IMG/VR virus record: IMGVR_UViG_3300006226_001702
Span: 139,064 to 198,648 of that record
From: a virus
Taxonomy: Duplodnaviria > Heunggongvirae > Uroviricota > Caudoviricetes
Reading direction: 5' to 3' (one strand)
Length of the DNA stretch: 59,585 nt
The position numbers and the translations under genes are program-made. Positions 2,039 to 39,514 of the stretch are shown here, one piece after another (the first letter of the stretch is position 1; every line of letters begins with the position of its first letter). A model generated the notes under the pieces. It was not told the DNA's origin. It saw only the letters and a program-made list of their open reading frames with translations, and did not search any database.

Positions 2039-2577
2039 TTTACACCACCAAATTGAAATTGTCCAGGAATTCTTTGTTTTGGTTTTTTGAAATAAATATT
2101 ATGGTCATTAGTGCTTGGCTTCATTTTTCCTAAACTCATTTTTGATATATATCTAAAATCTGTGCCAAGGAATTTTGCGGCTTTATTAAAAGATGTAAAA
2201 TGCGTAATTTTTAAAGTTTTTTGACATTCAACCCAACATTCTTTTGGAGGCATTGCCGGTTGGGCCTCATTTATTGATATCGGTTTTCCTGTGGCTTTAA
2301 ATAAATCTTCAAAATAACTTAAAACTTCTCTATTAAACCATTCTCTACAGATATGATTCTCAGTGTCTTTGCCCAATTTATGTAATGCTTTTTCAACAGC
2401 ATTTACATCATCAAAATCTGCGGCTAATAAGATGTTTATTTTACCAGGTGTAGCTGTTTTTAACCCTTGCATTCTCTTATTTAGAGAGACTGAAGTTTTT
2501 CCTATTTTAATTGGCTGTTTATGAGTGACTGGGTCCATTACCCATGAATCTTCATAAACATAACATGTTCCTTTCAT
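2035..2577 (-). CDS. T5orf172/GIY-YIG-like nuclease domain protein
   Basis: YVY...IKIGKT...R...L.T..P...E..LH...REWF pattern; basic C-terminal DNA-binding-like region. Confidence 0.7.
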   Translation of the reverse strand: MKGTCYVYEDSWVMDPVTHKQPIKIGKTSVSLNKRMQGLKTATPGKINILLAADFDDVNAVEKALHKLGKDTENHICREWFNREVLSYFEDLFKATGKPISINEAQPAMPPKECWVECQKTLKITHFTSFNKAAKFLGTDFRYISKMSLGKMKPSTNDHNIYFKKPKQRIPGQFQFGGVK

Positions 2578-2622
2578 GTAAACTCCTCATTATGTTTATA
2601 ATATTATATAAGATAGTTTTAA

Positions 2623-2805
2623 CTAATTTTCTTCTGTCTTAAGGCTATTCAGATATTCTTTTCTCCACTTTAAATAGTGAATTAGATCTTTAATTCCCTC
2701 GATAGAAAAGTGAATGATTAAGACAGGTATGGCTAAAATTGCATATCCCAATGCAAAGAAAAAGAACATAGAAAGTGCGTTCCATAGTTCAAGTAGATAA
2801 ACCAT
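2623..2805 (-). CDS. small membrane protein
   Basis: Hydrophobic N-terminal half, in operon orientation. Confidence 0.5.
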   Translation of the reverse strand: MVYLLELWNALSMFFFFALGYAILAIPVLIIHFSIEGIKDLIHYLKWRKEYLNSLKTEEN

Positions 2806-2813
2806 TTGATTAT

Positions 2814-3287
2814 TTAGTTTACTGTTAAAGTATGTGGGTTCTTAAATAATCCAGTTTCTTCTGCTGCTTGTAGATATTCGCCTTTTCCTAAGACAAACTT
2901 TTTTCCTTGCCAAGCTTCACAAGCATCAATCCATTCATCCCACTTTTCTTCTAAAGTCATATAAAAGTTGGACTCATAATTTCGACGTTGTGACCTACAG
3001 CTCCATTCTTCTTTTAGAGAACGATGTGGGTATATTACGATAGTATCACTCCATGATGCTGCTAAAATTTCTGGCAGGGCGTTAATGAAAACTATATCAA
3101 ACATACTCTGTAGTTGTTTATTCCGAGACATATAAGGCATGAGCCATTTATCTCTAAAATGTCTTTCCCAATCATAAAAATCATGGTCAACACAACTAAT
3201 CCTTTGACAATTTTCCAACACATAATAAGTCTTTCCACATGCTGGAAAACAAGCAATAGATCTACCCATATCTGTCTCCTTAATCAA
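2814..3287 (-). CDS. P-loop-containing hypothetical protein (kinase-like)
   Basis: FPACGKT Walker-A-like motif near the N-terminus. Confidence 0.5.
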   Translation of the reverse strand: MIKETDMGRSIACFPACGKTYYVLENCQRISCVDHDFYDWERHFRDKWLMPYMSRNKQLQSMFDIVFINALPEILAASWSDTIVIYPHRSLKEEWSCRSQRRNYESNFYMTLEEKWDEWIDACEAWQGKKFVLGKGEYLQAAEETGLFKNPHTLTVN

Positions 3288-21476: not shown

Positions 21477-21499
21477 ATTTTAGTATATTAACATGAGAC

Positions 21500-21524: not shown

Positions 21525-22054
21525 CAAGATGCATTTAAAAATTAATTAACCAGATTTAATTTGTTTTAAGTAATTGCAGTTTCGCATCTTAAACTTAACT
21601 TCAATAAAAAACAAGGCGCTGACAATTTTTAGAGAATTGCCAAACTCATCCGGACTTACGTCGCGGTGTGGATTTCGAAGTCCACTAAAAAAATTTTAAA
21701 AGAATTTTTCATTACCATTTAAGTATTATTGCTGATAATGCGCCTTAACTTCTCCTTATTCACCGCCCGTCAGGCAGTTATTTTAAATAAAACAAGATAC
21801 GCTTGTGGCCTCTTTTACGTAGACACCACTAAAATCGGTGTTTTTTTACTTGAACATTTCTAAACAAGTCATTACTTTAATTGTAATATCCAGTAGATTT
21901 TTTGTGTTGCTGTTTACGTACCTTAATATAATTCACGATTCGCTTTTTACCAATCCGCAGGTTATTAATTGCTGCATGAACCGTAGTTTTTCTCTAAATA
22001 AAACACGATGCGCTTTATCATACCAATTGATATTTAATTGCTGTTATGCACCGT
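21525..22054 (-). ncRNA. array of five Y-RNA-like structured units (22004-22054, 21934-21984, 21793-21924, 21612-21746, 21525-21590)
   Basis: Each unit: 7-bp terminal stem with compensatory changes, CWGCAA 3-5 nt after the 5' strand, variable interior, unpaired 3' G; immediately downstream of the TROVE-like/vWA gene. Confidence 0.75.
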
Positions 22055-22122: not shown

Positions 22123-22131
22123 TATATTAAC
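22123..22131 (-). promoter_or_regulatory. GTTAATATA putative phage promoter upstream of the RNA array (one of 11 copies)
   Basis: Same 9-mer upstream of ten other - strand genes/RNAs. Confidence 0.55.
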
Positions 22132-23638
22132 CAATTAGTTTAATTGGCTCATATCTCTTTGAAAGAAGTGTCTCTTTGAGACACTCAAATGGGTCAAGTT
22201 GTCCACTCATCACCATCTTTGCAATATGTACACTGAAGCCAGAAACTAATGCTACTCCCAAGTCGTTTTCAACCATTGGAACTGCTCCAGTTCTACTATT
22301 CACATTCCAGAATATGCATCTTGGAATCTTATAGCCAGCATCTTCATACTCGGCTTTTATCTCATCGAAGAGCTTCATGTCAAGTCTTGCGCCTTGGTTA
22401 AACTCCATGTCAGAAATTATGAGAATGTTCTTCACCATTTCTTCCTGTGTCATGTTGTTTTTCTTAGCTGCATTAAGAATTAACTTGAACACTTTCACTA
22501 TGTCAGTTGATGCTACTTCACAGTGAGTGAGCGCAATCTTTAACTTAGCAAGCAAGCTCTTTGCCTTACTGAAATCTACAAACTGTGGTCTATCACTGAA
22601 TGTGATGTACTTGTCTTTGAACTCACCACTGTTTCTTTCTGAGCAATAGATAGCCAACGCATTTGCTATGTCAAGAGCCATTGCCTTTGTGCCTGGTAAG
22701 TTCATTGTCATTGAGCCGCTTCCATCTGCTACAACTAAAGTGTTGCTTATGTCATAAGTTGGAAGAGCCTTCCACATTGCTTCAATTGCTGCGTCTTCTG
22801 TTGATGCTAAACTTCTGTCCCACATACTTTCAGTAACGGCATATTGGCAAACGATATCATGTGGGAATGCAGTTGATGCGTTGATCTTTGCTTCACCTTT
22901 TTCAAGCTTAGCAAGATACTCATTATATCGGCTCATATCATTTCTCTTGAATGCATTTCTGTACTTCAAGTTAGCTTGAGTTGGAACCTTTTCATAGTCG
23001 ATATTTGCCCAATCACCCTTGCTTGCCTTAACTTCAATAACGTCAAGATAAGCTCTCAATGCTGATAACTTCTTTCGGTACTGCTTTTCTGTCAAATTCA
23101 AAGCCTTAGCAAGAGCTCTACCCATGTTACGAACACCCTTATCAGATGTGTTAACAGATGGCATCCACTTTGCACAAATTGAAACGGCTTTGCCCTTTTC
23201 CATATTTGCAGTATCTTCAGCTAATTGTGCAGCAACCATCTCAACAATTGCAGCATCAACTTTCTTTGACAAGCCCCAAAACACTGTCCAATCGTCCCAT
23301 CTTCCATACTCAGGTATGTACTTGATTAAGTCAATTGCTCCATCGTTTAACTGTAAAAGTGATGTGAAAGTTCTTCTGAAAAGATCTCTCTCACCTAATC
23401 CCTCTCGTATGTCACGAGCGAAGAATATCCACTTAGCAGCTAAATCAGGTGTGTCAGCAAAGGCTTTTGTGAAATCTGAAATAAGTTGATTTTTCATTGT
23501 GCCCCTATATGAAGCGACATGAAAGTTCATATCTAAAAGGGCCTTGCCTGTAGTAGCATGTACTCGGGCATTATTTTCCGTATAAGCATCTCGAGACTTT
23601 TCTTGTCTTGAGATTTCGTTTTTGATCTGGTTCATCAT
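22127..23638 (-). CDS. DUF2828-family TROVE-like + vWA protein (Ro60/Rsr-like architecture)
   Basis: TEN, FFARDIREGLGER, EYGRWDD, AKWMPS, YRK.LS.LR, vWA MIDAS DGSGSM, ITFS, ISDMEF, FWNV, VSGFS. Confidence 0.85.
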   Translation of the reverse strand: MMNQIKNEISRQEKSRDAYTENNARVHATTGKALLDMNFHVASYRGTMKNQLISDFTKAFADTPDLAAKWIFFARDIREGLGERDLFRRTFTSLLQLNDGAIDLIKYIPEYGRWDDWTVFWGLSKKVDAAIVEMVAAQLAEDTANMEKGKAVSICAKWMPSVNTSDKGVRNMGRALAKALNLTEKQYRKKLSALRAYLDVIEVKASKGDWANIDYEKVPTQANLKYRNAFKRNDMSRYNEYLAKLEKGEAKINASTAFPHDIVCQYAVTESMWDRSLASTEDAAIEAMWKALPTYDISNTLVVADGSGSMTMNLPGTKAMALDIANALAIYCSERNSGEFKDKYITFSDRPQFVDFSKAKSLLAKLKIALTHCEVASTDIVKVFKLILNAAKKNNMTQEEMVKNILIISDMEFNQGARLDMKLFDEIKAEYEDAGYKIPRCIFWNVNSRTGAVPMVENDLGVALVSGFSVHIAKMVMSGQLDPFECLKETLLSKRYEPIKLIG

Positions 23639-23695
23639 AATACAAATCTCCTCTGGTTATTATTATTTAGTTATATTAACATCAAATTAAAAATC

Positions 23696-25654: not shown

Positions 25655-25728
25655 CTCCCGGTCCAGGGCTCGAACCTGGGACAATCTGGTTAACAGCCAG
25701 ACGCTCGTACCAACTGAGCTAACCGGGA
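25655..25728 (-). tRNA. tRNA-Asn(GTT)
   Basis: TCCCGGT/ACCGGGA-G; TCTGG-CTGTTAA-CCAGA. Confidence 0.95.
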
Positions 25729-34942: not shown

Positions 34943-35166
34943 TAGTCAAACAAATCCAAAAACTCAATATCAGAAGTTACTTGTATTGATTTGCCAGTGG
35001 CTAAGTCATAAAGATCCATCTTATGCATTTTACAATGGTCAGTCGCAAGGATTGGCCCCGAAGGAAACTTCATTCCTCTTTTTGAATAGTGTTCACAAGT
35101 TGTGCATATTAGAGGGGTCTTCATATTGTTGGCATATTCACCAAAGTCGAAACAATTCATAATCAT
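34942..35166 (-). CDS. small Cys-rich protein
   Basis: CTTC...CKMH; ends LFD. Confidence 0.5.
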   Translation of the reverse strand: MIMNCFDFGEYANNMKTPLICTTCEHYSKRGMKFPSGPILATDHCKMHKMDLYDLATGKSIQVTSDIEFLDLFD

Positions 35167-35176
35167 AGATTAACAA

Positions 35177-35258
35177 CGGAAGAGACAGGACTCGAACCTG
35201 CATGTCTTTCGATCACTGGTTTTCAAGACCAGCGAGCTCCCTACTGCTCAACTCTTCC
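35177..35258 (-). tRNA. tRNA-Ser(TGA)
   Basis: GGAAGAG/CTCTTCC-G; CTGGT-CTTGAAA-ACCAG. Confidence 0.92.
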
Positions 35259-35695
35259 TAAATATGTTGTTTACCCTTAAATCTATAATTATCAGTTTGT
35301 TCATGACAATTAGGACATAAAAGTTCACAATTTTCTCTTAACACATTTTTTCCATTTCCATCAATGTGATGTAATTCTAAAGTTATTGGAATTCCCCTCC
35401 ATTCAACATTATTACATCCTTCACATTTATAGCCTCTTTCAATTAAAAGAAACTTCTTAATTGTTCTTTTATCTGTGCAACCCCTATTTACAGCATCATC
35501 ATATGATTCATATTTTTGAGCTATACCTGGTTTACGTTTATGATTATTTATATAAATCATTCCATTTTTTTCTATAACCCTTTTTACTGTCCTCCAAGTA
35601 CAACCAAATTTTGAAGCTATATCTGATATTGAAGTATCAGCAGCTAATAATTCTTTTAACTCGTCTACTTTATTATGTAATTTATTTTTTCTCAT
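35258..35695 (-). CDS. HTH + HNH homing-type endonuclease
   Basis: IASKFGCTWRTV HTH; CEGC, LELHHIDGN, LLCPNCH; free-standing between tRNAs. Confidence 0.88.
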   Translation of the reverse strand: MRKNKLHNKVDELKELLAADTSISDIASKFGCTWRTVKRVIEKNGMIYINNHKRKPGIAQKYESYDDAVNRGCTDKRTIKKFLLIERGYKCEGCNNVEWRGIPITLELHHIDGNGKNVLRENCELLCPNCHEQTDNYRFKGKQHI

Positions 35696-35824
35696 AATAA
35701 TTAGTACATTAATTAAGTACATCTAACATAATTAGCTGCCTATACTTGGCTCTTCCAAATTGCGTTCAATTTCATTTTAGCCTATTGACTGGGTAGAAAT
35801 ACCACGCGGGACCTAAGACCTCTT

Positions 35825-35946
35825 TACAATGGAGAAGGATTCGAACCTTCGACCCGGGGATTAACATTCCTAATTTGATTTGCAGTATTAAGCCGTTAGC
35901 ACGACTCTATTATTTACCTGCTCTACCAACTGAGCTATCCATTGTA
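35825..35946 (-). ncRNA. tRNA-Asn-like RNA carrying the array stem/CWGCAA module between D arm and anticodon loop
   Basis: Canonical D arm (GCTC-AGTTGGTA-GAGC) and T arm (GAAGG-TTCGAAT-CCTTC), 9-bp acceptor, ~45-nt insertion, GGA-ATGTTAA-TCC hairpin. Confidence 0.75.
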
Positions 35947-35950
35947 CGAT

Positions 35951-36026
35951 TGAGCCCGGGAGGACTTGAACCTCCGACAACCTGATTAAAAGTCAGGTAC
36001 TCTAAAACCACCTGAGTTACGAGCCC
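35951..36026 (-). tRNA. tRNA-Lys(TTT)
   Basis: CCTGA-CTTTTAA-TCAGG. Confidence 0.95.
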
Positions 36027-36031
36027 TTAAA

Positions 36032-36141
36032 AGCGGTAAGCTGGAATCGCACCAGTTGGGTGGCACAGGGACCTGCGCAGGGTTTATCCACCGGTCTAAA
36101 GAAACGGAGTGACGGCGCTTTGTCATTCCCATTCTACCGCT
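36032..36141 (-). ncRNA. acceptor-stem/T-arm RNA with non-tRNA interior
   Basis: AGCGGTAG/TTACCGCT stem; CTGG-TGCGATT-CCAG; two interior hairpins. Confidence 0.55.
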
Positions 36142-36143
36142 AG

Positions 36144-36217
36144 TGCTGCCTATCGGAATCGCACCGATGACAACTAGATTTTCAGTCTAGTGCTCTACTG
36201 GGCTGAGCTAAAGCAGC
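36144..36217 (-). tRNA. tRNA-Phe(GAA)
   Basis: CTAGA-CTGAAAA-TCTAG; T-loop TGCGATT. Confidence 0.9.
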
Positions 36218-36329
36218 ATGTGTGCAATCCCCGATGGTACAGCCACTCGTTTGATAGCATTATCCATTATCCGTTTCATGCACTGCAACATTTCTGTCGC
36301 TGTGGGAGCAACGAGCTTCCCACTCCGGA

Positions 36330-36700
36330 TGGACGTAACGGGAGTCGAACCCGTGTCCAAAAGAGTTCCAAATAAAAAGTGTTCTTACAAGGTTAGCTGA
36401 TTCATGCGACCTAACCGAGATATCTTTAACCAGCCATGCGTATCTCCAGTTGCACCCTCCGTTCCAATGTCCGCGCAAACCCGTTAGGACTAATTCACGC
36501 GTTAGGTTCTAAGCGTCGCCACTTTGAATGACCGAACCACTATCATTCAGTGACGGATTATGCTGCTAAGAGCGCGGCTGCTCTGTTGCCAGAGAAACCA
36601 TAATCGTATTCGTAACCGTTGCCGTTTACAATTTGATGGACTACCATCATCTTCCTTGACTCTCTATCCTTCGCTAATCTGTCGAAACCATTGTACGCCC
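36330..36700 (-). ncRNA. ssrA: tmRNA; tag reading frame 36623-36558 encodes GNGYEYDYGFSGNRAAALLAA*
   Basis: GGGCGTA/TACGTCC-A with G3.U70, GGTTTCGAC 5' motif, T arm ACGGG-TTCGACT-CCCGT, tag ending LAA-stop. Confidence 0.93.
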
Positions 36701-36706
36701 ATAATT

Positions 36707-36889
36707 TTATAAAAACTCTTCAACAAATTCGTCAAAAGTCTTTCCGCTTTGTTTGAAACGAGACCAAGTTTCTTCAGCTTGTGCTCGATCCATAATTGGT
36801 CCCCATCTATTTTCGTCATCAATTAAGATGCGATATTGTCCAGCATAAGGACCTTCTCTAATCACTTCAAAGAATTCGTGCTTTTCCAT
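36707..36889 (-). CDS. hypothetical protein
   Basis: AAGGA SD before MEKHEF. Confidence 0.5.
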   Translation of the reverse strand: MEKHEFFEVIREGPYAGQYRILIDDENRWGPIMDRAQAEETWSRFKQSGKTFDEFVEEFL

Positions 36890-37167
36890 ATTCAATTTCC
36901 TTTCAAAAAAATTCCACCCCATCCACTCGAATGGGGATGGAATCAGTTTACCTAATTTTTCCCATCCATCCCTATTGCCAAGATTTTACTCCGGCTTTTC
37001 ATGTCAAAGACCACTTCCATGCCACCGACTACTCGGGTCACTGTCAAGTTTGAAGCTTTTCTTTCCACATCTATCACAACGATAAAATGGGTAAGGCACT
37101 CCAATCATTCCGTAAAAGAATGACAGTACATATTTATGTATGCCAATTTTACATAGAAAATTCATAG

Positions 37168-38826: not shown

Positions 38827-39514
38827 ATAATCCTGGCTGGTCTACATCATCAAGTGGTTCAATACTTACAACGTCCAACCCTGGCAGATCAAAATATTCT
38901 AATGCTTGGACTTCTGCATGAGTCTCATCATTAGCCTCCACATCAATAGTTACAGATAAAACTACTCTATATTTCATATAACTATATTAACTCCTATACG
39001 TACATATCAAGATTATTGCCGCAATATGATGGGAGAGGCGGCTTAACTTCAATCTCCTCATCTTTCTTTTCTTCAACTGTTTTTTCTCTGGGCTTCATAT
39101 TTCTCTTGTAGATGTTCAGCACATCATTTATGTTGTAAGCCCCAGCAATTTTCTCTACCATAAATCCCCCGCTGATTCTTTGTATCTTCTTCTTGCGATT
39201 TCTTCATCACTTGGTTCTGGCACTAATGTCCAAATACAATCAGTAGTTTGCTGTCTCTTTTTTAATGGACAGTTTGGCACCTTATCAAAAGTGCATTTTC
39301 TATTAGTACAACTATCACCAAGGAAATAATCAATATCGTCATCTGACCCCACTAAATCAATCACGTTCTGCAGCTCTAAAAGCAATCGTCAAGCCAAAAA
39401 ATGCAAGTGATAAGCTGAACCAAACAAAGTCACCTTCTGGATTTAGCAGCAAATTCTTTAACGTAAAACCAACTGCAGAAGCACTGACACCAATTAGTAA
39501 ACACAAAACATACT

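What the first reader, a model, noticed from the sequence alone, without database searches (positions are those of the whole stretch)
35825..35946. The array module reappears circularly permuted inside a tRNA body 14 kb away
Seen: a tRNA with canonical D and T arms and a 9-bp acceptor helix has ~45 nt inserted after the D arm. The insertion contains GAGTCGT-G-CTA-ACGGCTT-AATA-CTGCAA (35880-35908): the 3' stem strand plus G, a short loop, then the 5' stem strand plus CWGCAA of the array units, i.e. the same module with its ends joined. A GGA-ATGTTAA-TCC hairpin (Asn GTT loop) follows. An intact tRNA-Asn already exists at 25655. Established: bacterial YrlA RNAs combine a Ro-binding module with a tRNA-like domain. 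Inference: the module is a portable protein-binding handle independent of RNA ends, and this gene tethers a tRNA mimic (or a splice/repair substrate) to the Ro60-like protein; it would likely be mis-annotated as an intron-containing tRNA.
Basis: partly seen in the sequence, partly recalled or inferred. Interest (0 to 1): 0.86.

Follow-up and report, generated by a model that had tools for sequence, protein, structure and literature searches.

The report
tRNA-shaped partner RNA of Ro60-like protein
This phage gene makes a complete tRNA-shaped RNA with an extra arm, and that arm is the "handle" also found on five small RNAs next to the phage's Ro60-shaped protein gene. The same design recurs in many unrelated phages beside that protein gene, so it is most likely the protein's RNA partner and not a working or intron-bearing tRNA.

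Summary
At 35826-35944 (- strand) lies a 119-nt RNA with a full tRNA body. A 46-nt insert sits in the 5' strand of its anticodon stem. The insert is a 7-bp hairpin whose loop starts with G, then 4 nt, then CUGCAA. This is the circular permutation of the stem + CWGCAA ... stem + G units downstream of the DUF2828 gene at 22127-23638.

It is not chance.
- A pattern scan found more than 117 such tRNA-like genes in viral contigs and 120 loci in bacterial assemblies.
- The hairpin covaries strongly.
- A covariance model built without this window scores it at 90 bits; ordinary tRNAs score 40 or less.
- A DUF2828 gene is present in 19 of 20 near-complete viral records. It lies within 3 kb, always on the same strand, in 69 of 117 loci.
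- Long-insert tRNAs without CWGCAA almost never sit near DUF2828 (1 of 93).
- The predicted DUF2828 structure matches Ro60.

Best reading: a non-decoding tRNA mimic docked to a Ro60-like ring, a new variant of the Ro60/Y-RNA theme. Binding and function are untested. I found the family in neither Rfam nor the papers searched. This scan has already noted the same family on other genomes.

The parts
35826..35944 (-). Whole tRNA-shaped RNA: 119 nt, made of a 73-nt tRNA body plus a 46-nt insert
   Evidence: Rfam tRNA 42.8 bits. Family model R1, built without this window, scores it 90.3 bits, E 2e-24, full length.
35938..35944 (-). Acceptor stem, 5' strand. It pairs with 35827-35833. The flanks at 35945-35946 and 35825-35826 can extend the helix to 9 bp.
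   Evidence: Sequence, fold, ARAGORN drawing after the insert is removed.
35920..35935 (-). Canonical D arm: 4-bp stem and 8-nt loop with GG
35871..35916 (-). 46-nt insert that interrupts the 5' strand of the anticodon stem between positions 28 and 29
   Evidence: The split 5-bp stem is found in 59 of 68 relatives, against 6.9 in permutations.
35890..35907 (-). Handle hairpin: 7 bp with a central U-G wobble, and loop GCUA whose first G is the conserved G
   Evidence: All 7 pairs covary in relatives, and the first loop nucleotide is G in 49 of 50.
35880..35885 (-). CUGCAA motif, 4 nt after the hairpin
35856..35870 (-). Upper anticodon-like hairpin: 3 bp plus the 7-nt loop AUGUUAA (GUU, U33, A37). 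Its 3' strand continues and pairs with G27 and G28 at 35917-35918.
35834..35850 (-). Canonical T arm: 5-bp stem with a UUCGAAU loop
22127..23638 (-). Gene for the 503-aa DUF2828 + DUF7788 protein, a Ro60-shaped ring plus a vWA domain with a MIDAS motif. It is the presumed protein partner.
   Evidence: Pfam 5e-35 and 1e-41. PHROG 850 'RNA-binding protein'. AF2 model pLDDT 86; the top 13 PDB matches are all Ro60/TROVE. MIDAS residues are invariant.
21525..22054 (-). Array of five open-form units: 22054-22004, 21984-21934, 21924-21793, 21746-21612 and 21590-21525. Each has a 7-nt 5' strand, 3-5 nt, CWGCAA, a variable core, a 7-nt 3' strand and a G. A terminator follows.
   Evidence: Arm weights learned from closed modules of other phages score these units 5.7-9.9, against -6.4 +/- 5.9 for random paired stems.
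35951..36026 (-). tRNA-Lys(UUU), which ends 6 nt upstream of the tRNA-shaped RNA. The two are probably transcribed together.

Best explanation
The gene encodes a stable tRNA-shaped RNA that does not decode. It is a member of an uncatalogued RNA family that partners the Ro60-shaped DUF2828/vWA protein.

The proposed mechanism has four steps.
1. The RNA is transcribed with the tRNA cluster. This is inferred.
2. Its intact acceptor, D and T elements let the tRNA-processing enzymes cut its ends. This is inferred from the anatomy.
3. The extra arm is the docking site for the DUF2828 ring. The arm is a hairpin with a G-first loop, a short spacer and single-stranded CUGCAA. It is the same handle that the five array RNAs form from their 5' and 3' ends. 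The sequence equivalence and the genomic linkage are shown here; binding is inferred.
4. The protein then carries a tRNA look-alike with an Asn-type anticodon arm. By analogy with Ro60/Y-RNA particles, this could gate the ring or tether it to enzymes that recognise tRNA or to nucleases. In a phage that most plausibly serves RNA surveillance or counter-defence. This step is speculative.
For: - The closed handle matches the array units in pairing, the central wobble, the trailing G, the spacer and CWGCAA. Arm weights learned only from other phages score it like the array units.
- Independent occurrences exist. Cyanophage B23 has the same design right after its DUF2828 gene. There are more than 117 viral loci and 120 bacterial loci.
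- Features the search did not require are conserved: a 7-bp hairpin with compensatory changes at all 7 pairs and 90% pairing, against 35-45% when the partners are slid; a G-first loop in 49 of 50; and the split anticodon stem in 59 of 68, against 6.9.
- Model R1, built without the window, scores it 90.3 bits, against 39.7 or less for the window's real tRNAs.
- Linkage to DUF2828 is strong. The closest relative, L001, has a tRNA-like gene, two open units and DUF2828 in tandem.
- DUF2828 has the Ro60 fold and a MIDAS motif.
- Several points argue against decoding. A normal tRNA-Asn exists. U33 is kept in only 42 of 66 relatives, some clades have 6-nt loops, and in 12 of 68 the module replaces the loop. 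The discriminator here is U, whereas the phage's own tRNA-Asn has G.
- There are precedents. Ro60 binds tRNA-like YrlA (PMC4201824). Phage phiLo Ro60 binds Y-like RNAs and PNPase (PMC12135203). Bas63 gp130, which I show to be a DUF2828 protein followed by four open units, counters the Ppl defence (preprint 10.1101/2024.10.10.617714).
Against: - No binding, expression or processing data exist for this RNA or for any family member.
- Here the gene lies 12.2 kb from the DUF2828 gene. In 69 of 117 relatives the distance is 3 kb or less.
- Removing the insert gives a flawless tRNA-Asn(GUU) cloverleaf, and the split stem is well conserved, so a spliced or decoding form is not excluded.
- The family search required the D loop, the T loop and CWGCAA, so their conservation is partly by construction.
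Confidence: 0.7

Rival explanations
1. It is an intron-bearing tRNA-Asn(GUU). The 46-nt insert is cut out by an unknown phage or host activity, possibly guided by the DUF2828 particle and sealed by an RNA ligase, to give a working tRNA.
For: Removing the insert in silico gives a perfect cloverleaf that ARAGORN calls tRNA-Asn. A 5-bp stem is restored in 59 of 68 relatives. The loop keeps U33 and A37. The record encodes an Rnl2-type ligase domain far away.
Against: The same handle sits on free-standing RNAs, where nothing could be spliced. The site, 28/29 or 29/30 inside a stem, and the size fit no known bacterial tRNA intron, and there is no group I intron match. A canonical tRNA-Asn already exists. 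Anticodon loops drift in relatives, with 6-nt loops, non-U33 and missing loops. There is no RtcB.
Confidence: 0.12
2. It is a working five-armed tRNA that keeps the insert, is charged and decodes AAY codons. The handle lets the Ro60-like protein store, protect or deliver it.
For: All tRNA core elements are intact. Eleven of 69 relatives encode CCA after the discriminator. The closest relative, L001, also has a GUU loop.
Against: The discriminator is U, not the G of the phage's own tRNA-Asn; from general knowledge, G73 is an Asn identity element in E. coli. It would be redundant with the normal tRNA-Asn. A 46-nt bulge in the anticodon stem would probably clash with the ribosome (inference). Loop constraints are relaxed across the family.
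Confidence: 0.08
3. The handle is real but is read by something other than DUF2828, such as a host protein, a processing nuclease or another phage factor. The linkage would then reflect a shared operon only.
For: Binding has never been measured. In this genome the tRNA-like gene is 12 kb from DUF2828. The Dictyostelium Class I RNAs, which have the same stem + CAGCAA layout (PMC5054030), are reported to bind an RRM protein (PMC7919456).
Against: Linkage holds across very different phage groups and gene orders, always on the same strand, and is absent for inserts that lack the handle. The partner has the fold of a protein family known to bind stem-plus-bulge RNAs.
Confidence: 0.08
4. It is a decaying tRNA pseudogene that resembles the array by chance.
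For: A permuted hairpin + CWGCAA of any sequence is expected 1.8 times per genome by chance.
Against: With the array's strand consensus required, only 1 of 60 shuffles gives a hit. All stems are intact. An independent model scores it 90 bits. Dozens of covarying relatives exist.
Confidence: 0.02

Closest known systems
Rsr (Ro60) with YrlA Y RNAs of bacteria and mycobacteriophages (Rfam RF02553; Chen et al. 2014, PMC4201824)
   Same: A ring-shaped Ro60-fold protein with a vWA/MIDAS domain is encoded near small RNAs that join a protein-binding stem module to a tRNA-like domain with D and T arms.
   Different: The protein belongs to Pfam DUF2828/DUF7788, not TROVE. The handle is stem + G / CWGCAA, not the YrlA helix. 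YrlA is a permuted tRNA with a capped acceptor and ends in the Ro-binding stem. This RNA keeps the native tRNA ends and an anticodon-like arm and carries the handle as a capped side arm. RF02553 scores only 21.6 bits against a threshold of 69, and that match spans two genes.
Thermus phage phiLo Ro60 with Yrl1/Yrl2 (PMC12135203; PDB 9KOP, 9L5Y)
   Same: A phage-encoded Ro60-fold protein with adjacent partner RNAs. These structures are the top structural matches of this window's protein. A complex with host PNPase was shown in vitro.
   Different: The phiLo RNAs are described as stem-bulge-stem with a CGAA motif. No tRNA body and no CWGCAA are reported.
Bas63 gp130 of Escherichia phage JohannRWettstein (PhageMaP preprint 10.1101/2024.10.10.617714)
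   Same: gp130 is a DUF2828 protein lying directly upstream of a tRNA cluster. The preprint reports that it counters the Ppl defence and suggests that some neighbouring tRNA genes may be Y RNAs.
   Different: In Bas63 I find four unannotated open stem + CAGCAA units between the tRNA genes, and no tRNA with the handle. The preprint does not describe the handle.
Class I (type-I) ncRNAs of dictyostelid amoebae (PMC7919456; search pattern in PMC5054030)
   Same: A short stem joins the 5' and 3' ends. A conserved single-stranded motif ending in CAGCAA lies right after the 5' strand, followed by a variable core. This is the same layout as the open array units.
   Different: These are eukaryotic RNAs with no tRNA body, and the reported binder is an RRM protein. 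Whether a DUF2828 protein is involved was not tested here. The resemblance is a lead, not homology.
Intron-containing tRNAs (bacterial group I, archaeal bulge-helix-bulge)
   Same: A tRNA gene is interrupted by extra sequence, and removing it restores a cloverleaf.
   Different: The insert is 46 nt long and sits in the anticodon stem's 5' strand. There is no group I match. The same element also exists on non-tRNA RNAs and is linked to a Ro60-like gene.

Membership tests
tRNA (Rfam RF00005) | Score at or above the gathering threshold, with acceptor, D and T arms | tested here: met
   42.8 bits against a threshold of 29. The arms are visible.
tRNA (Rfam RF00005) | Uninterrupted 5-bp anticodon stem with a 7-nt loop | tested here: not met
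   61 nt lie where the model expects 15. ARAGORN finds the gene only after the 46 nt are removed.
tRNA (Rfam RF00005) | Aminoacylation and decoding | not testable with these tools
   Indirect evidence only: U discriminator, redundancy with tRNA-Asn at 25655-25728, and relaxed loop constraints in relatives.
YrlA Y RNA (Rfam RF02553) | Score at or above the gathering threshold of 69 bits | tested here: not met
   21.6 bits, E 0.031. The match joins the T arm of tRNA-Lys to the D arm of this gene.
YrlA Y RNA (Rfam RF02553) | Permuted tRNA topology, with the RNA ends in the Ro-binding stem | tested here: not met
   The ends are in the acceptor stem and the handle is capped by a loop.
DUF2828-linked tRNA-like RNAs with the CWGCAA handle (uncatalogued; model R1) | Full-length match to a model built from other genomes | tested here: met
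   90.3 bits, E 2e-24, model positions 1-121. Real tRNAs score 39.7 or less.
DUF2828-linked tRNA-like RNAs with the CWGCAA handle (uncatalogued; model R1) | 6-9 bp hairpin whose loop starts with G, then 0-5 nt, then CWGCAA | tested here: met
   7 bp, loop GCUA, 4-nt spacer, CUGCAA.
DUF2828-linked tRNA-like RNAs with the CWGCAA handle (uncatalogued; model R1) | Insert splits the 5' strand of a 5-bp anticodon stem at 28/29 or 29/30 | tested here: met
   5 of 5 pairs with the split after 2 nt.
DUF2828-linked tRNA-like RNAs with the CWGCAA handle (uncatalogued; model R1) | DUF2828 gene in the same genome, on the same strand | tested here: met
   Gene at 22127-23638 on the - strand.
DUF2828-linked tRNA-like RNAs with the CWGCAA handle (uncatalogued; model R1) | Lies within about 3 kb of the DUF2828 gene (typical, not universal) | tested here: not met
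   The distance here is 12.2 kb. The space next to the gene is taken by the five open units.
Ro60 / TROVE proteins (for the partner gene) | Ring of helical repeats plus a vWA domain with MIDAS | tested here: met
   The top Foldseek matches are all Ro60/TROVE, E 2e-9 to 7e-7, over the full length. D-x-S-x-S, T and D are invariant in 32 homologues.
Ro60 / TROVE proteins (for the partner gene) | Sequence-level match to TROVE or to solved Ro60 chains | tested here: not met
   Pfam gives only DUF2828 and DUF7788. phmmer against PDB sequences finds nothing relevant.
Group I tRNA intron | Match to a group I intron model, with an insert over 200 nt in the anticodon loop | tested here: not met
   No intron family appears in the Rfam scans. 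The insert is 46 nt and lies in the stem.
Archaeal-type bulge-helix-bulge intron | 3-nt bulges separated by a 4-bp helix at both junctions | not tested
   No formal search was run, and no such motif is evident in the predicted fold.

The most novel reading that the evidence does not exclude
The stem + G / CWGCAA element may be an ancient, portable address tag for DUF2828-type Ro60-like proteins. It would be shared by phages, bacteria and the so far unexplained Class I RNAs of social amoebae. Phages would graft it onto whole tRNA bodies, mostly with Lys, Asn, Thr or Ile-type anticodon arms, to build particles that sense, sequester or decoy tRNA-directed host defences, in line with Bas63 gp130 countering Ppl.
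Probability: 0.2. Interest if true: 0.92.

Novelty: new variant of a known kind. Interest (0 to 1): 0.78.

Why it matters
Ro60/Y-RNA particles are a classic but poorly understood RNA-surveillance system. This finding points to a second, much larger phage branch with three distinguishing features: a different protein family (DUF2828 homologues are found in 695 of 50,697 phage records), a different RNA handle, and a full tRNA in its native topology that carries the handle as a fifth arm.

It has several practical consequences.
- It explains 'undetermined' or missed tRNA calls and spurious small ORFs in phage tRNA clusters.
- It gives the Ro60-like anti-defence protein Bas63 gp130 concrete candidate RNA partners.
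- It defines a compact RNA element that works in two circular permutations, which is a directly testable protein-RNA recognition problem.

Tried and rejected
- Nucleotide search of the phage collection with 35000-37000 found only generic tRNA similarity.
- An exact 18-mer of the handle has no match in viral contigs.
- Rfam, at gathering and at permissive thresholds, names nothing in the insert or the array. The weak YrlA match is an artefact of two adjacent genes.
- phmmer of the protein against PDB sequences gave nothing useful; only the fold comparison worked.
- The 9-bp acceptor helix was tested as a family trait and rejected. My ARAGORN-based control for -1/73 pairing was unreliable and I do not use it.
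- Two further candidate modules elsewhere in the record, look like coding sequence.
- RtcB and Rnl1 were sought in the record and not found. The Rnl1 control rang nowhere, so that negative is uninformative.
- Pairing of CUGCAA with the D-stem 3' strand, seen in a sub-fold, is not conserved in B23, so I dropped it.
- Many Nostocales hits to the pattern have CTGCAA but no hairpin and no DUF2828. I treat them as a different RNA.

Full report
**What is there.** The window is the last 59.6 kb of a 198,648-bp virus record. It holds about 20 tRNA genes and a tmRNA gene on the - strand.

At 35826-35944 (-) Rfam's tRNA model scores 42.8 bits, but 61 nt sit where the anticodon arm's 15 are expected. ARAGORN does not call the gene.

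Read from the sequence, the RNA has these parts:
- a 7-bp acceptor stem, which reaches 9 bp with the flanks
- a standard D arm
- A26, then G27 and G28
- a 46-nt insert
- a 3-bp hairpin with loop AUGUUAA, whose 3' strand runs on to pair with G27 and G28
- a 5-nt variable loop
- a standard T arm
- a U discriminator

The insert therefore splits the 5' strand of a 5-bp anticodon stem. When I cut the insert out in a script, ARAGORN draws a clean tRNA-Asn(gtt). The body is at most 71% identical to any tRNA of the window, so it is not a recent copy. A normal tRNA-Asn lies at 25655-25728.

**The module.** The insert holds a 7-bp hairpin with loop GCUA, then 4 nt, then CUGCAA. Downstream of the 503-aa DUF2828 + DUF7788 gene at 22127-23638 lie five units. 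Each consists of a 7-nt strand, 3-5 nt, CWGCAA, a variable core, the complementary strand and a G. A terminator follows.

The tRNA insert is the same thing with the strands joined by a loop whose first base is that G. The two forms also share the central wobble pair and the spacer length. In the whole record this permuted arrangement occurs once. Shuffled genomes give 1.8 such hits for any sequence, but a hit appears in only 1 of 60 shuffles when the array's strand consensus is required. That statistic is post hoc, so I looked for independent copies.

**Independent copies.** The DUF2828 gene of Synechococcus phage B23 (37% identity) is followed by stem + CAGCAA RNAs and by a 110-nt gene annotated 'tRNA-Undet'. 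That gene has the same layout: D arm, three stem bases, a 7-bp hairpin with a G-first loop, 3 nt, CUGCAA, an anticodon-like hairpin and a T arm.

It also found 120 loci in bacterial assemblies. Nearly all viral hits are complete tRNA-like genes: 68 distinct sequences have at least 6 of 7 acceptor pairs, all but two of them 7 of 7.

**Features the pattern did not demand.**
- A 6-9 bp hairpin sits just before CWGCAA, and its sequence varies freely while it stays paired.
- On a structure-blind MAFFT alignment, RNAalifold predicts the acceptor, D, insert-hairpin and T helices.
- In the insert hairpin all 7 pairs show changes on both sides, and 90% of cells pair. The whole structure pairs at 96.5%, against 35-45% when the partners are slid, and no shuffle of 500 reaches the covariation score.
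- The first loop base is G in 49 of 50 sequences.
- A split 5-bp anticodon stem forms in 59 of 68 sequences, against 6.9 (maximum 15) when the 3' strands are permuted among sequences.

A covariance model built from 50 of these sequences, without the window, scores the window's gene at 90.3 bits (E 2e-24, full length). The window's real tRNAs score 39.7 or less. No second copy exists in the record.

**Open and closed forms are the same element.** I learned position weights for the two hairpin arms from the closed modules of other phages only. Applied to every stem + CWGCAA candidate in this record, these weights score the five array units 5.7-9.9 and the tRNA insert 8.5. Four units and the insert take the top five places; the fifth unit ties for seventh. 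Random paired stems average -6.4 +/- 5.9, with a 99th percentile of 7.4.

Open units of the same form lie next to DUF2828 in several other phages:
- the closest relative L001, which has a tRNA-like gene (69 bits), two open units and DUF2828 in tandem
- Shigella phage ESh19
- Escherichia phage Bas63
- Bacillus phage PK-3
- cyanophage B23

**Link to the protein.**
- PF11443 is present in 39 of 50 viral records that hold such a tRNA-like gene, and in 19 of 20 records that are at least 90% complete. As a rough baseline, 695 of 50,697 phage records have a DUF2828 homologue by tblastn.
- In 69 of 117 short viral loci a DUF2828 homologue lies 54-2987 nt away, always on the same strand.
- In bacterial assemblies the figure is 59 of 120, again always on the same strand. 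Among pattern hits with no detectable hairpin before CWGCAA, only 4 loci have a DUF2828 gene nearby.
- An unbiased scan for any 52-82-nt gap between the D and T words gave 107 distinct inserts. Thirteen have CWGCAA, against 2.6 by chance. DUF2828 is nearby for 5 of those 13, but for only 1 of 93 loci without CWGCAA.

**The protein is Ro60-shaped.** An AlphaFold2 model built on 32 homologues has pLDDT 86 and pTM 0.85. Its best PDB matches are exclusively Ro60/TROVE structures over the full length: phiLo phage Ro60, Xenopus and human Ro60, and Deinococcus Rsr. The vWA MIDAS residues are invariant. Sequence methods alone do not see this relationship.

**Decoding or not.** Several observations argue against decoding.
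- The RNA is redundant with a normal tRNA-Asn.
- Its discriminator is U, whereas the phage's own tRNA-Asn has G.
- U33 is kept in only 42 of 66 relatives.
- One clade has a 6-nt loop, and in 12 of 68 the module replaces the loop altogether.

Other observations keep a spliced or charged form possible. The cloverleaf restored by removing the insert is perfect. A37 and A38 are kept in 54 of 66 relatives. Loops of Lys, Asn, Thr and Ile type recur. L001 also has a GUU loop. Eleven of 69 relatives encode CCA.

I read these as a preserved anticodon-arm mimic, but a spliced or charged form is not excluded. The strongest argument against an intron is that the same handle sits on free-standing RNAs.

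**Comparison with what is known.** Ro60 with tRNA-like YrlA is established (PMC4201824). YrlA, however, is a permuted tRNA with a different handle, and RF02553 fails here. Phage phiLo Ro60 binds two Y-like RNAs and host PNPase (PMC12135203).

A preprint reports that the Ro60-like gp130 of Bas63 counters the Ppl defence, and guesses that neighbouring tRNA genes may be Y RNAs (10.1101/2024.10.10.617714). I show that gp130 is a DUF2828 protein. The candidate partners there are four unannotated stem + CAGCAA units between the tRNA genes.

Neither Rfam 15 nor the papers I could search describe this handle or a tRNA carrying it. Earlier agents of this scan reached the same reading on other genomes. 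My tests were run independently of their notes.

**Limits.** Nothing here shows expression, processing, binding or function. The family searches fixed the D-loop, T-loop and CWGCAA words, so divergent members are missed and those words are conserved by construction.

Noticed in passing
window 7710-47618, - strand (11 sites, e.g. 22123-22131, 21484-21492, 23672-23680): The 9-mer GTTAATATA occurs 11 times, all on the - strand, against 0.78 expected. It looks like a phage promoter-type motif. One copy precedes the array. None lies directly before the tRNA-like gene; the nearest upstream copy is at 38983-38991.
   Followed up: partly
L243 (Bas63, MZ501086) 2273-3108; L134 (Shigella phage ESh19) 5751-6601: Four open stem + CAGCAA units lie between the tRNA genes just after the DUF2828 gene. 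They are unannotated, or are overlapped by tiny 'hypothetical protein' CDS calls that are probably spurious.
   Followed up: partly
window 35884-36007, - strand: There is a weak YrlA match (21.6 bits). It arises because the T arm of tRNA-Lys followed by the D arm of the next gene imitates YrlA's permuted order. This is a trap for Y-RNA searches in tRNA clusters.
   Followed up: yes
L028, L052, L055, L064, L079, L081, L101, L105, L112, L116, L124 (IMG/VR): A second class has a D arm, a longer insert that ends in a U-rich run before CAGCAA, and a T arm, but no matching acceptor 3' strand. Some members lie near DUF2828 (L064, L112). It may be a different scaffold for the same handle.
   Followed up: no
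L244-L250, L252, L256, L257, L263, L267, L274-L278, L284, L288, L295, L309, L315-L318 and others (Nostocales chromosomes): Many Nostoc and Anabaena genomes have a tRNA-like gene with a roughly 45-nt insert that holds CTGCAA, but with no hairpin and no DUF2828 nearby. This seems to be an unrelated interrupted tRNA class.
   Followed up: no
L141, L153, L156, L160, L175, L184, L189, L200, L206, L209, L213, L217 (IMG/VR, some from giant-virus bins): These tRNA genes have 25-35-nt inserts that begin right after an anticodon-loop-like ACUGUAG or AUUGUAG. They look like short canonical-position introns and have nothing to do with the CWGCAA handle.
   Followed up: no
Literature: PMC5054030, PMC7919456: Dictyostelium Class I RNAs are searched for with a 5' stem strand directly followed by a motif ending in UUACAGCAA, and a complementary 3' strand. 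This is the layout of the phage open units. I checked only the published pattern.
   Followed up: partly
G000:C1:60275-60730, - strand (outside the window): The record encodes an Rnl2-type RNA ligase domain (PF09414, 80 bits) and no RtcB. This is possible RNA-repair context for the Ro60-like system.
   Followed up: no
It has no CWGCAA handle.
   Followed up: no
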